Assembly (NCBI RefSeq): GCF_030013205.1
Contig: NZ_CP122648.1
Length of the DNA stretch: 64,000 nt
Strand: one strand, 5' to 3'
Source of the DNA: Escherichia coli
GTDB lineage: Bacteria > Pseudomonadota > Gammaproteobacteria > Enterobacterales > Enterobacteriaceae
The position numbers were made by a program. This document shows positions 6,894 through 9,800 of this stretch, one piece after another; position 1 is the stretch's first letter, and the number at the start of each line of letters is the position of its first letter.

Positions 6894-9800
6894 TCATACA
6901 AATAAGATGACGGCATTTTACTCGCACGTTCCATGAAAATCCTTTGCAAAGCGTAATGTTTCAAATGCACAAAACTTTTATACTCTAAGAAATCAGGATT
7001 GCACCAGTACAAGCAGCCTGATGTTTGACGAGTATTTAACTTGTTATGAATAACATAGAATAGCAGCCATTCACTTTTTCTACGAATCAGGAACCCTCCA
7101 TGAGTAAGTCTGAAAATCTTTACAGCGCAGCGCGCGAGCTGATCCCTGGCGGTGTGAACTCCCCTGTTCGCGCCTTTACTGGCGTGGGCGGCACTCCACT
7201 GTTTATCGAAAAAGCGGACGGCGCTTATCTGTACGATGTTGATGGCAAAGCCTATATCGATTATGTCGGTTCCTGGGGGCCGATGGTGCTGGGCCATAAC
7301 CATCCGGCGATCCGCAATGCCGTGATTGAAGCCGCCGAGCGTGGTTTAAGCTTTGGTGCACCAACCGAAATGGAAGTGAAAATGGCGCAACTGGTGACCG
7401 AACTGGTCCCGACCATGGATATGGTGCGCATGGTGAACTCCGGCACTGAAGCGACCATGAGCGCCATCCGCCTGGCCCGTGGTTTTACCGGTCGCGACAA
7501 AATTATTAAATTTGAAGGTTGTTACCACGGTCACGCTGACTGCCTGCTGGTGAAAGCCGGTTCTGGCGCACTCACGTTAGGCCAGCCAAATTCGCCGGGC
7601 GTTCCGGCAGATTTCGCCAAACATACCTTAACCTGTACTTATAACGATCTGGCCTCTGTACGCGCCGCGTTTGAGCAATACCCGCAAGAGATTGCCTGTA
7701 TTATCGTCGAGCCGGTGGCAGGCAATATGAACTGCGTTCCACCGCTGCCAGAGTTCCTGCCAGGTCTGCGCGCGCTGTGCGACGAATTTGGCGCGTTGCT
7801 GATCATCGATGAAGTGATGACCGGTTTCCGCGTAGCGCTAGCTGGCGCACAGGATTATTACGGTGTGGAACCGGATCTCACCTGCCTCGGCAAAATCATC
7901 GGCGGTGGAATGCCGGTAGGCGCATTCGGTGGTCGTCGTGATGTAATGGATGCGCTGGCCCCGACCGGTCCGGTCTATCAGGCGGGTACGCTTTCCGGTA
8001 ACCCGATTGCGATGGCTGCTGGTTTCGCCTGTCTGAATGAAGTCGCGCAGCCGGGCGTTCACGAAACGCTGGATGAGCTGACAACACGTCTGGCAGAAGG
8101 TCTGCTGGAAGCGGCAGAAGAAGCCGGAATTCCGCTGGTGGTAAACCACGTTGGCGGCATGTTCGGTATTTTCTTTACCGACGCCGAGTCCGTGACGTGC
8201 TATCAGGATGTGATGGCCTGTGACGTGGAACGCTTTAAGCGTTTCTTCCATATGATGCTGGATGAAGGTGTTTACCTGGCACCGTCAGCGTTTGAAGCGG
8301 GCTTTATGTCCGTGGCGCACAGCATGGAAGATATCAATAACACCATCGATGCTGCACGTCGGGTGTTTGCGAAGTTGTGATGATTTTGCCTCGCCCACCG
8401 GGCGAGGCATTCAATTAACGGCTCTGCTTTCTCAACAAATAGATAAAATATGGCGCGCCGATAAAGGTCGACAGCAGCCCCGCTGGGATCTGGAATGGAA
8501 ACAGCACCATCCGCCCACACCAGTCAGCGAACACCAGCAGTAATCCTCCCACCAGCGCCGAAATTACGATGTGTGGCATCGTCCGTCGAAAGCCCATCAT
8601 CCGCGCAATATGCGGTGCCATTAAACCAACAAAACTCAACGGTCCAATGGTCATTGTCGCAGTCGCTGTCAGGCAAGCCGCTAACAGCAGCAGCGCAATT
8701 CGCGTCGGCGTCAGCGCCATCCCCACGGCTCGTGCGGTATCACCTCCCAGCGGTAAAATGGTCAGCCAGCGGCGGCACAGCGGGGTAATCGCCAGCAAAA
8801 TCACCATCACAATTCCGGTACGCCAGACCTGCGCATCGGTCGCGTTGTAGGTCGAACCGGAAATCCAGGTCAGAACTTGCGCCATTCGCAGGTCACCACT
8901 TGCCTGCAACATCATCAAAAGCATGGTGAACGCGGTACTTAACGCCATCCCCGCCAGTAACATGCGGTGTGGGGAAAATCCACCGCGTCCGGCGGCGATC
9001 ATAATGATCAACAGCGTCACCGCCGCGCCGAGACTGCCTGCAGGTAACAGCCAGCCAAAGGCATTACCCGGCACCAGAAACAGCATCAACACCACGCCAA
9101 ACGCCGCGCCGGAGCTAATCCCCAGCACTTCCGGGCTTGCCATCGGGTTTCCGGTCAGCCGCTGAATAATACAGCCCGCCACCGCCAGCATGACGCCCGC
9201 AAACAGCGCCGCCATAATTCGCGGCCAGCGCCAGGGCATTAAATCCTCGAGCAACGCCCCGCTCGCCCACGTCCAGCCGTGCGCATCACGACCAAACGAC
9301 AGCGCCACCACCACAGCCATCAACAGCAGCACGCCGCCCGCGAGGGCAAACGCCAGCACATGTTGGCGTTCAGCAGCGACACGATCGTTCACCTTCATAT
9401 CCGGCGCGCTAATGCTGCGTAAACGCGGCAGCAGCCAAAGTAGCAGCGGTGCACCTATCAACGCAGTGACCGAACCGGTAGAAACTTCCATCCACACGCG
9501 AGTCAGCCAGAGGATGATTTGATCAGAAAGCCACAGAATTAACGCACCAATCAGCGACGCCAGCATTAACCGTGGCAGCAGACGCCGCGCCCCCAGCATT
9601 TTTGCCAGCAGCGGCGCGAACAACCCGATAAAGCCGATAATCCCCACTGCATTCACCAGCAGCGCACTGATGACTATCGCCAGCGACAGCGCCGCCAGAC
9701 GCGCGAGCGACAAGGCCAGCCCGAGATTGCGCGCCACGCCATCATCAAGCCCCATCAGGGTTAACGGACGAAGTAGCAGTAACGTCAGCATCACGCCGCC

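What the first reader, a model, noticed from the sequence alone, without database searches (positions are those of the whole stretch)
8381..8414. Several convergent intergenic regions look shorter than in K-12, consistent with missing REP-type palindromic elements
Most gene spacings in this window agree with K-12 as I recall it, but three gaps look shorter: hemL-fhuB (34 bp here), hrpB-mrcB (90 bp here, 17130-17219) and gcd-cueO (46 bp here, 42528-42573), each by roughly 100-160 bp. Each retains only a single short hairpin. This is inference from remembered reference spacing, not a computed alignment. If real, it suggests a non-K-12 lineage lacking extragenic palindromic insertions at these sites.
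Basis: inference. Interest (0 to 1): 0.25.

Follow-up and report, generated by a model that had tools for sequence, protein, structure and literature searches.

The report
Repeat-free alleles of three gene gaps
Three gaps between genes are 102-155 bases shorter than in lab strain K-12 because this pig-derived E. coli carries common, already described variants that lack small repeated DNA elements (two REP/BIME clusters and one BoxC pair); this is ordinary strain-to-strain variation.

Summary
A computed alignment against MG1655 gives these gap lengths:
- hemL-fhuB: 34 bp here, 157 in K-12.
- mrcB-hrpB: 93 bp here (not 90), 195 in K-12.
- gcd-cueO: 46 bp here, 201 in K-12.

These are the only large intergenic length differences outside the divergent yad/rpn region.

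- The K-12 extras at hemL-fhuB and gcd-cueO are REP/BIME elements. The gcd-cueO one has the IHF-site BIME-1/RIP layout.
- The hrpB-mrcB extra is not REP. It is the inverted BoxC/triplex-motif pair listed as TMECO 1+2 by Holder et al. 2015.
- hrpB and mrcB run in the same direction, so that gap is not convergent.

The window is identical to porcine ETEC4079. Its short alleles are common among 5,426 complete E. coli genomes: 68%, 27% and 44%. They assort independently across reference strains.

Sister Escherichia species carry orthologous BIMEs at both REP sites, so this lineage probably lost them. At hemL-fhuB an unrelated hairpin replaced the BIME. The empty hrpB-mrcB site is shared with E. 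albertii and is probably ancestral.

BIME and BoxC presence/absence polymorphism is already published. Interest is low.

The parts
8381..8414 (.). hemL-fhuB convergent intergenic gap, 34-bp repeat-free allele. K-12 has 157 bp here, carrying a BIME.
   Evidence: Gene ends from PGAP. Alignment to MG1655 shows 31 bp here replacing 154 bp in K-12. This allele is in 3,697 of 5,426 genomes.
8387..8409 (.). GC-rich hairpin TGCCTCGCCC-ACC-GGGCGAGGCA. It starts 6 nt after the hemL stop and ends 5 nt before the fhuB stop. K-12 and the non-coli Escherichia loci lack it.
   Evidence: Fold -21.4 kcal/mol, z = -5.6 on both strands. One copy per genome. Found only in E. coli loci among the 106 loci held. No T-run, so it fails the terminator scan.
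17127..17219 (-). hrpB-mrcB co-directional intergenic gap, 93-bp BoxC-free allele. K-12 has 195 bp here.
   Evidence: PGAP places mrcB at 14595-17126 and hrpB at 17220-19640. Alignment. This allele is in 1,468 of 5,426 genomes.
17207..17219 (-). Empty site (TTTGCTTTGGTCT) next to the hrpB stop codon. K-12 carries about 114 bp here holding the inverted BoxC/TMECO pair.
   Evidence: A homologous empty site is present in E. albertii (L009) and Escherichia sp. MOD1-EC7003 (L008).
17170..17193 (-). AT-rich 8-bp-stem hairpin in the conserved mrcB upstream region. It is shared with K-12, Salmonella and Citrobacter.
   Evidence: The 93-nt gap as a whole folds no better than shuffled sequence (z = -0.86).
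42528..42573 (.). gcd-cueO convergent intergenic gap, 46-bp BIME-free allele. K-12 has 201 bp here.
   Evidence: PGAP gene ends. Alignment. This allele is in 2,368 of 5,426 genomes.
42528..42530 (.). Junction trinucleotide CCA, directly after the gcd stop. It stands in place of K-12's 158 bp: a 41-bp flank plus y REP, IHF-site linker, z REP and tail.
42533..42554 (.). Hairpin ATGCCCGGA-GAGA-TCCGGGCAT, shared with K-12, Sakai, IAI1, CFT073, IAI39 and HS.
   Evidence: Fold -19.3 kcal/mol on the plus strand and -21.6 on the minus strand, z about -3.9. Not terminator-like by the scan.

Best explanation
The three short gaps are real. They are common alleles of three intergenic sites where small interspersed repeats are polymorphic in E. 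coli.

**What K-12 carries.**
- fhuB-hemL: a BIME made of a y REP, a short linker, a z REP and a degenerate third unit.
- hrpB-mrcB: an inverted pair of BoxC/triplex motifs.
- cueO-gcd: a BIME-1/RIP-type element made of a y REP, a long linker with an IHF consensus site, and a z REP.

The window comes from the porcine strain ETEC4079 and carries the repeat-free allele at all three sites.

**Inferred history.**
- The two BIMEs predate E. coli and were lost here. At hemL-fhuB the whole gap was replaced by an unrelated 10-bp-stem hairpin. At gcd-cueO a deletion removed the BIME and its 41-bp flank and left the neighbouring hairpin.
- The empty hrpB-mrcB site is the ancestral state, and the BoxC pair is a later insertion.
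- The alleles were then reshuffled among E. coli lineages by homologous recombination. This explains why they do not follow phylogroups.

**Inferred function.** The remaining hairpins at the two convergent gaps probably act as 3'-end structures that protect the mRNAs. This has not been shown.
For: **Lengths and breakpoints.**

**REP identity in K-12.**
- GTAG-headed palindromes in inverted pairs lie at 173,526-173,568 and 138,714-138,776. There are none in the window.
- The K-12 segments match many other loci per genome: median 9 places for the hemL-fhuB query and at least 38 for the gcd-cueO query.
- The gcd-cueO linker contains AATCAATGGATTG, which fits the IHF consensus WATCAANNNNTTR (by inspection).
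- The BIME-1 layout is as described in PMC3333891.

**BoxC identity.** The sequences and coordinates equal TMECO 1 and 2 in Table 1 of PMC4666352.

**Frequencies in 5,426 genomes, short versus K-12-like**.
- hemL-fhuB: 3,697 versus 1,701.
- hrpB-mrcB: 1,468 versus 3,536.
- gcd-cueO: 2,368 versus 2,742.

**Reference panel**, gap lengths in bp:

| Strain | cueO-gcd | hrpB-mrcB | fhuB-hemL |
|---|---|---|---|
| K-12 | 201 | 195 | 157 |
| HS | 46 | 195 | 34 |
| IAI1 | 201 | 195 | 34 |
| Sakai | 201 | 195 | 34 |
| CFT073 | 77 | 93 | 34 |
| IAI39 | 46 | 93 | 34 |
| window | 46 | 93 | 34 |

**Polarity.**
- An orthologous BIME with the same flanks sits at hemL-fhuB in Escherichia sp. MOD1-EC7003 (157 bp, 89% identical to K-12's), Escherichia sp. 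E1V33 (157 bp, 96%) and E. albertii TW07627 (118 bp, 86%).
- These loci are 90-94% identical to both K-12 and the window, so they are true outgroups.
- An orthologous y-linker-z BIME lies directly after the gcd stop in an E1V33-species genome.
- CFT073's 77-bp allele keeps the 41-bp flank and joins it to the hairpin at an ATGCC direct repeat. This is a second, independent BIME deletion.
- The empty hrpB-mrcB site is homologous in E. albertii and MOD1-EC7003.
Against: - Polarity rests on only three or four outgroup genomes. E. fergusonii was not sampled. Only one outgroup was reached for gcd-cueO.
- At hrpB-mrcB, Escherichia sp. E1V33 carries a collapsed K-12-type BoxC with identical junctions. 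Both alleles therefore cross species boundaries, through old polymorphism or interspecies recombination, and 'ancestral' is not clean.
- At hemL-fhuB every reference strain in the panel except K-12 carries the same derived 34-bp allele. This requires recombination or incomplete lineage sorting. The alternative, re-import of the BIME allele into part of phylogroup A, is not excluded.
- The origin of the 34-bp hairpin is unknown. It has no similarity to the BIME and no second copy in the genome.
- None of the hairpins passes the simple intrinsic-terminator scan, so the proposed 3'-end function is inference only.
- The K-12-like count at hrpB-mrcB (3,536) includes intermediate alleles about 64 bp shorter.
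Confidence: 0.88

Rival explanations
1. All three K-12 elements are insertions gained in the K-12 side of the species. The window simply keeps three ancestral empty sites.
For: - The empty hrpB-mrcB site is shared with E. albertii and Escherichia sp. MOD1-EC7003.
- CFT073 (B2) and IAI39 (F) lack the K-12 elements at all three sites.
- PMC3333891 reports the most REPs in clade A (about 546) and fewer than 310 in clade F.
Against: - Orthologous BIMEs with matching flanks occur at hemL-fhuB in three non-coli Escherichia lineages, including E. albertii.
- An orthologous BIME occurs at gcd-cueO in an E1V33-species genome.
- Salmonella and Citrobacter also have REPs at hemL-fhuB.
- The 34-bp hairpin allele was found only in E. 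coli.
- CFT073's 77-bp allele looks like a deletion between ATGCC repeats.
Confidence: 0.1
2. The three absences reflect genome-wide depletion of interspersed repeats in this lineage, for example after loss of the REP-associated transposase. They are not three independent local polymorphisms.
For: - No bona fide REP or BoxC triplex motif occurs anywhere in the 64-kb window. The K-12 counterpart has three such loci.
- The window matches IAI39 at all three sites. IAI39 belongs to the low-REP clade F of PMC3333891.
Against: - Each short allele is common and spread over many lineages.
- Sakai and IAI1 are short at hemL-fhuB only. HS (phylogroup A) is short at two sites.
- One of the three elements is BoxC, which the REP transposase is not proposed to mobilise.
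- Under independence, about 8% of genomes would be short at all three sites.
- PMC3333891 found only minor differences in REP number with or without tnpAREP.
Confidence: 0.12
3. The short gaps are assembly or sequencing artefacts, with palindromic repeats collapsed in the assembly.
For: Palindromic repeats can be collapsed or deleted during cloning or assembly. This is general knowledge; no tool result supports it here.
Against: Identical junctions occur in 1,468-3,697 independent complete genomes, including long-standing references such as CFT073, IAI39, HS, Sakai and IAI1.
Confidence: 0.01

Closest known systems
REP/BIME presence-absence polymorphism in E. coli intergenic regions. Sources: Bachellier et al. 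1997, Genetics 145:551, cited as ref. 39 in PMC3333891; and Ton-Hoang et al. 2012, PMC3333891.
   Same: - K-12's hemL-fhuB and gcd-cueO elements are GTAG-headed imperfect palindromes in inverted pairs.
- They are multi-copy and sit at the 3' ends of convergent genes.
- Their presence varies between strains.
- K-12 (clade A) carries more of them than clade F-like strains, as published.
   Different: - Nothing differs in kind.
- Here the hemL-fhuB BIME is not simply absent. A unique, unrelated hairpin sits in its place.
- The outgroup data suggest loss rather than gain at these two sites.
BoxC / PIT / TMECO intrastrand-triplex motifs and their locus instability (Holder et al. 2015, PMC4666352).
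   Same: - K-12's hrpB-mrcB segment is literally TMECO 1 (type B) plus TMECO 2 (type A) of that paper, in inverted configuration.
- That paper reports these motifs as often missing, mutated or collapsed to a simple hairpin (its 'palindrome effect') in other strains.
- All three states were seen here: 195 bp; a 131-bp collapsed form in Escherichia sp. E1V33, with span-matched alleles about 64 bp shorter than K-12's in O111:H8 and MSI001; and the empty 93 bp.
   Different: The window has no motif at this site.
RIP/RIB elements, that is BIME-1 with an IHF-binding L linker, at 3' ends of transcription units. Source: Boccard & Prentki 1993, cited as ref. 6 in PMC3333891.
   Same: K-12's gcd-cueO element has a y REP, a roughly 35-nt linker containing AATCAATGGATTG (fits WATCAANNNNTTR), and a z REP. 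It is a single copy at a convergent 3' end.
   Different: - IHF binding was not tested here.
- The z1 versus z2 subtype was not assigned, because the consensus figure was not available.
- The window lacks the element.
REPIN/RAYT systems (Nunvar et al. 2010, PMC2817692; Bertels & Rainey 2011, cited in PMC3333891).
   Same: They offer a candidate mechanism for BIME mobility, through single-strand cleavage at GTAG by TnpA-REP.
   Different: - No transposase gene lies in the window.
- No excision footprint was identified.
- The deletions seen look like ordinary microhomology or illegitimate events (ATGCC repeats).

Membership tests
REP/BIME (K-12 alleles at hemL-fhuB and gcd-cueO) | A 30-40-nt imperfect palindrome with a conserved GTAG tetranucleotide 5' of the stem foot | tested here: met
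   K-12 has GTAGGCCCGATAAG and GTAGGTCGGATAAG at 173,526-173,568, and GTAGGCCTGATAAG and GTAGGCTGGATAAG at 138,714-138,776. The definition is from PMC3333891.
REP/BIME (K-12 alleles at hemL-fhuB and gcd-cueO) | [quoted passage not shown] | tested here: met
   The motif hits lie on opposite strands, 16-36 nt apart. The sequences are shown.
REP/BIME (K-12 alleles at hemL-fhuB and gcd-cueO) | Highly repeated in the genome | tested here: met
   The K-12 junction queries hit a median of 9 places per genome and at least 38 places per genome. Whole y-linker-z units match at 85-90% identity at other loci.
REP/BIME (the window's own gaps) | Any GTAG-headed REP palindrome in 8381-8414 or 42528-42573 | tested here: not met
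   No motif hit lies in any intergenic part of the window. The only two loose matches are inside rpn and nadC coding sequence and are shared with K-12.
BIME-1 / RIP (K-12 gcd-cueO element) | A long L linker carrying an IHF-binding site between the y and z REPs, in single copy | tested here: met
   The linker AAAATTGTGCAAAATCAATGGATTGCACAGCTAGC contains a match to WATCAANNNNTTR (by inspection). Actual IHF binding cannot be tested with these tools.
BoxC / PIT / TMECO (K-12 hrpB-mrcB element) | CCCTCTCCC, loop, GGGAGAGGG, a 3-nt loop (TTA or CCG), then GGGTGAGGG; always intergenic | tested here: met
   Both motifs were found in K-12 at 164,547-164,580 and 164,597-164,631. They are identical to Table 1 entries 1 and 2 of PMC4666352.
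BoxC / PIT / TMECO (the window's hrpB-mrcB gap) | The same triplex motif in 17127-17219 | tested here: not met
   No motif in the gap. The only BoxC-arm-like hairpin in the window is at 61039-61061 and lacks the third strand.
   No REP motif in K-12 164,535-164,729. The sequence is BoxC.
Rho-independent terminators (the hairpins left in the window) | A GC-rich stem-loop followed by a run of T | tested here: not met
   No terminator-like site on either strand at any of the three gaps. The stems themselves are stable.

The most novel reading that the evidence does not exclude
The three sites could be stop-codon-bounded intergenic 'cassettes' whose alternative alleles are old enough to cross Escherichia species boundaries. 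They would be kept or exchanged by recombination because they are functionally interchangeable 3'-end structures. On this reading, the unique 34-bp hairpin now found in 68% of E. coli at hemL-fhuB would be a selected functional substitute for an ancestral BIME, not a neutral deletion product.
Probability: 0.12. Interest if true: 0.35.

Novelty: already known. Interest (0 to 1): 0.1.

Why it matters
It matters little beyond correct annotation.
- The result shows that K-12 is not a neutral yardstick for intergenic spacing. At hemL-fhuB K-12 carries the minority allele (31%).
- It shows that 'missing REP' calls need sequence inspection. One of the three elements is BoxC, not REP.
- The direction of change differs by site: two ancestral BIMEs lost, and one BoxC pair absent from the probably ancestral empty site.
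- The three sites could serve as small typing markers.
- They could also serve as natural allele swaps for testing what BIMEs or hairpins do to the 3' ends of hemL, fhuB, gcd and cueO mRNAs, and what the BoxC pair does upstream of mrcB.

Tried and rejected
**Ideas tested and rejected.**
- Assembly artefact: rejected by the population counts.
- REP at hrpB-mrcB: rejected, it is BoxC.
- Intrinsic terminators at the three gaps: none by the consensus scan.
- A known RNA family in the gaps: the Rfam gathering search of the whole window found only tp2 and the HtrA thermometer, both elsewhere.
- The 34-bp hairpin as a repeat family or a sequence shared with other genera: it has one copy per genome and is absent from 80 non-coli species loci.

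**Calls that led nowhere.**
- The first look-ups of outgroup FolK and MrcB failed because I gave coordinates that included the stop codon or missed a residue. They were corrected.
- A PanC look-up meant to walk along the outgroup contig returned ordinary E. coli genomes, because that PanC sequence is widespread. I walked instead through the lineage-specific fimbrial adhesin and YadE.
- UMN026 (NC_011751.1) is not in the collection.
- Bachellier et al. 1997 is not held.
- A search for the paper on REPs and translation termination did not find it.

**Not attempted.**
- A genome-wide REP census of ETEC4079.
- The presence of tnpAREP in ETEC4079.
- E. fergusonii at any of the three sites.
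Full report
**What the window is.** The first 50 kb are identical, with 0 mismatches, to E. coli ETEC4079 (pig faeces, Belgium), NZ_CP122643.1 4118689-4168688. The nearest relatives are porcine O139:H1/ETEC strains. The window is the reverse complement of MG1655 at roughly 117,206-181,945, at 97-98% identity outside the yad fimbrial operon.

**Checking the observation.** I compared the PGAP gene ends for ETEC4079 with the MG1655 annotation.

| Gap | Window coordinates | Here | K-12 | Difference |
|---|---|---|---|---|
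| hemL-fhuB | 8381-8414 | 34 bp | 157 bp | 123 |
| mrcB-hrpB | 17127-17219 | 93 bp | 195 bp | 102 |
| gcd-cueO | 42528-42573 | 46 bp | 201 bp | 155 |

- A blastn alignment of the whole window to MG1655 breaks at exactly these three places and in the divergent yad/rpn region.
- Every other indel is at most 36 bp, and all but a 1-bp one lie inside genes.
- The observation, made from memory, is therefore correct.
- hrpB and mrcB are co-directional, so only two of the three gaps are convergent.

**Site 1, hemL-fhuB.**
- K-12 has a BIME here:
  - a y-type REP (TGTCGGATGCGGCGTGAACGCCTTATCCGACCTAC);
  - a short linker;
  - an inverted z-type REP (GTAGGCCCGATAAGACGCGCCAGCGTCGCATCGGGCA);
  - a degenerate third unit.
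- The GTAG-headed motifs sit on opposite strands.
- The window has none of this. It has TGCCTCGCCC-ACC-GGGCGAGGCA at 8387-8409, a 10-bp stem (-21.4 kcal/mol, z = -5.6).
- K-12 lacks that hairpin, so the whole gap between the two stop codons is swapped (31 bp for 154 bp).

**Site 2, hrpB-mrcB.**
- K-12's extra segment is not REP. It reads CCCTCTCCC-TTGA-GGGAGAGGG-TTA-GGGTGAGGG, followed by an inverted CCG-loop copy.
- These are TMECO no. 2 (type A, 164,631-164,597) and no. 1 (type B, 164,547-164,580) in Table 1 of Holder et al. 2015 (PMC4666352). The authors identify them with the older BoxC/PIT elements.
- The window has 13 bp (TTTGCTTTGGTCT, 17207-17219) where K-12 has about 114 bp.
- The remaining 80 bp upstream of mrcB are conserved as far out as Salmonella and Citrobacter.

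**Site 3, gcd-cueO.**
- Directly after the gcd stop, K-12 has a 41-bp flank, a y REP, a linker, a z REP and a short tail.
- The linker contains AATCAATGGATTG, which fits the IHF consensus WATCAANNNNTTR.
- This is the BIME-1/RIP layout described in PMC3333891.
- The window has only CCA in place of these 158 bp.
- Both strains share the following hairpin ATGCCCGGA-GAGA-TCCGGGCAT at 42533-42554.

**Wider scan.** In the K-12 counterpart of the whole window these are the only three REP or BoxC loci. The window has none.

**How common the alleles are.** I used junction-specific queries against 5,426 complete E. coli genomes.

| Site | Window-like short allele | K-12-like allele |
|---|---|---|
| hemL-fhuB | 3,697 (68%) | 1,701 (31%) |
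| hrpB-mrcB | 1,468 (27%) | 3,536 (65%, at least 80% of the query covered, includes intermediates) |
| gcd-cueO | 2,368 (44%) | 2,742 (51%) |

- Other alleles exist. One hrpB-mrcB form is about 64 bp shorter than K-12's. One gcd-cueO form has a 77-bp gap.
- If the sites were independent, about 8% of genomes would be short at all three.

**Reference panel**, gap lengths in bp. Phylogroup labels are from my own knowledge. PMC3333891 supports them for K-12's clade, CFT073, IAI1 and IAI39.

| Strain | cueO-gcd | hrpB-mrcB | fhuB-hemL |
|---|---|---|---|
| K-12 (A) | 201 | 195 | 157 |
| HS (A) | 46 | 195 | 34 |
| IAI1 (B1) | 201 | 195 | 34 |
| Sakai (E) | 201 | 195 | 34 |
| CFT073 (B2) | 77 | 93 | 34 |
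| IAI39 (F) | 46 | 93 | 34 |
| window | 46 | 93 | 34 |

The sites assort independently and do not define a lineage. At hemL-fhuB, K-12 is the odd one out.

**Outgroups used.** A scan of one genome per species with MrcB gave loci that are 90-94% identical to both K-12 and the window. They are therefore true outgroups.

**Direction of change at hemL-fhuB.**
- A BIME with the same flanks is present in three outgroups:

| Outgroup | BIME length | Identity to K-12's BIME |
|---|---|---|
| Escherichia sp. MOD1-EC7003 | 157 bp | 89% |
| Escherichia sp. E1V33 | 157 bp | 96% |
| E. albertii TW07627 | 118 bp | 86% |

- Salmonella and Citrobacter have their own REPs at this position.
- The 34-bp hairpin was found only in E. 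coli.
- The BIME is therefore ancestral and the window's allele is a derived replacement.

**Direction of change at gcd-cueO.**
- I walked along an E1V33-species contig.
- That genome has the orthologous flank, y REP, linker and z REP right after the gcd stop. About 650 bp with a small ORF follow.
- CFT073's 77-bp allele keeps the 41-bp flank and joins it to the hairpin at an ATGCC direct repeat.
- The window/IAI39/HS allele removes the flank as well.
- These look like two independent deletions of an ancestral BIME.

**Direction of change at hrpB-mrcB.**
- The empty 93-bp site is homologous in E. albertii and MOD1-EC7003.
- E1V33 has a 131-bp form in which the K-12-type pair has collapsed between the two CCCTCTCCC copies. 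This is the 'palindrome effect' of Holder et al..
- The empty site is probably ancestral. Both alleles cross species lines, which implies old polymorphism or recombination.

**Mechanism and function.**
- Shown: the lengths, the identity of the elements, the frequencies and the outgroup states.
- Inferred: loss by illegitimate or microhomology deletion (the ATGCC repeat in CFT073), followed by spread of alleles through homologous recombination.
- No transposase footprint was seen, and no RAYT gene lies in the window.
- The remaining hairpins are stable but have no T-run, so they fail the terminator scan.
- Their role as 3'-end protecting structures is an inference from what REPs and 3' stem-loops are reported to do (PMC3333891 introduction).
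- From memory only: REPs within about 15 nt of a stop codon have been reported to affect translation termination (Liang, Rudd & Deutscher 2015). The hairpin at 8387-8409 is 6 nt and 5 nt from the two stop codons. I could not retrieve that paper.

**Comparison with what is known.**
- Strain-to-strain BIME polymorphism is the subject of Bachellier et al. 1997, cited in PMC3333891.
- Ton-Hoang et al. 2012 report 286-574 REPs per genome. Clade A has the most and clade F (IAI39, SMS-3-5) the fewest. This matches K-12 versus the IAI39-like state seen here.
- Holder et al. 2015 describe frequent absence, mutation or collapse of BoxC/TMECO loci among E. coli strains, and they list this very locus.
- Nothing here falls outside those descriptions, so the finding is already known and of low interest.
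- The only mildly new points are site-specific. Two ancestral BIMEs were lost, one of them replaced by a unique hairpin that now predominates in the species. The third element had been mislabelled as REP.

**Caveats.**
- There are few outgroups, only one for gcd-cueO, and E. fergusonii is missing.
- The counts depend on megablast seeds in short junction queries.
- The z1/z2 subtype was not assigned.
- No functional data exist for any of the sites.

Noticed in passing
window 790-861 (degP, minus strand): A perfect tandem duplication of a 36-bp unit (GCTCTGGAACGGAGAACCTTCCTGGCAGAACGGAGA, two copies). It adds 12 in-frame residues in the SPFCQ/SPFQS-rich loop of DegP (486 aa against 474 aa). It is present in ETEC4079, but the near-identical strain K_EC180 and K-12 have one copy.
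   Followed up: partly
window about 18680 (hrpB): A 9-bp in-frame deletion at a GCGCCCGGC/ACGCCCGGC direct repeat, relative to K-12 and to the near-identical K_EC180. hrpB is 2421 nt here against 2430 nt there.
   Followed up: partly
window 24528-31385: The yad fimbrial operon is a highly divergent allele, about 71% identical to K-12, while the flanks are 97-98% identical. One fimbrial-like gene (29465-30083) is annotated as frameshifted with an internal stop. IAI39 and HS have IS3 insertions in the same operon.
   Followed up: no
window 33157-33527: The panC-rpn gap is 371 bp against 73 bp in K-12, so it is longer here. It contains a partial duplicate of the 3' end of the Rpn-family gene, annotated as a pseudogene at 33238-33429. 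CFT073 and IAI39 have similar remnants. There is also a 24-bp deletion in the rpn gene relative to K-12 rpnC.
   Followed up: partly
window 61039-61061 (aroP-ampE convergent gap): A hairpin CCCTCACCC-N5-GGGTGAGGG whose arms equal the BoxC GGGTGAGGG arm but which has no third strand. It is shared with K-12 at 120,145-120,167. It may be a collapsed BoxC or simply a terminator stem.
   Followed up: no
window 58192-58305 (+) and 1093-1138 (-): Rfam matches above gathering score: tp2 sRNA just beyond the 5' end of aceE, between aceE and pdhR (103 bits), and the HtrA (degP) 5'-UTR thermometer (77 bits).
   Followed up: no
window 17030 (mrcB) and 40956 (gcd): Small in-frame indels relative to K-12: 3 bp in the acidic Asp/Tyr repeat near the MrcB N-terminus (843 aa against 844 aa) and 6 bp in gcd.
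   Followed up: no
L104 12878-14838 (E. albertii TW07627): Downstream of mrcB, fhuA and fhuC are missing. In their place are a fimbrial-type gene, an IS1 transposase gene and what looks like a truncated fhuD (219 aa). fhuB is intact.
   Followed up: no
L102 2913-3761 (Escherichia sp. E1V33-related genome GCA_004323655.1): The cueO-gcd gap is 849 bp and holds a 122-aa ORF with no Pfam hit (3241-3609). It also has a different hairpin next to cueO (GCCTGTATT-ACAA-AATACAGGC).
   Followed up: no
L007 12096-14339 (K_EC180): fhuA, the ferrichrome receptor and phage T1/T5/phi80 receptor, is annotated as a pseudogene with an internal stop in this close relative of the window strain. It is intact in ETEC4079.
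   Followed up: no
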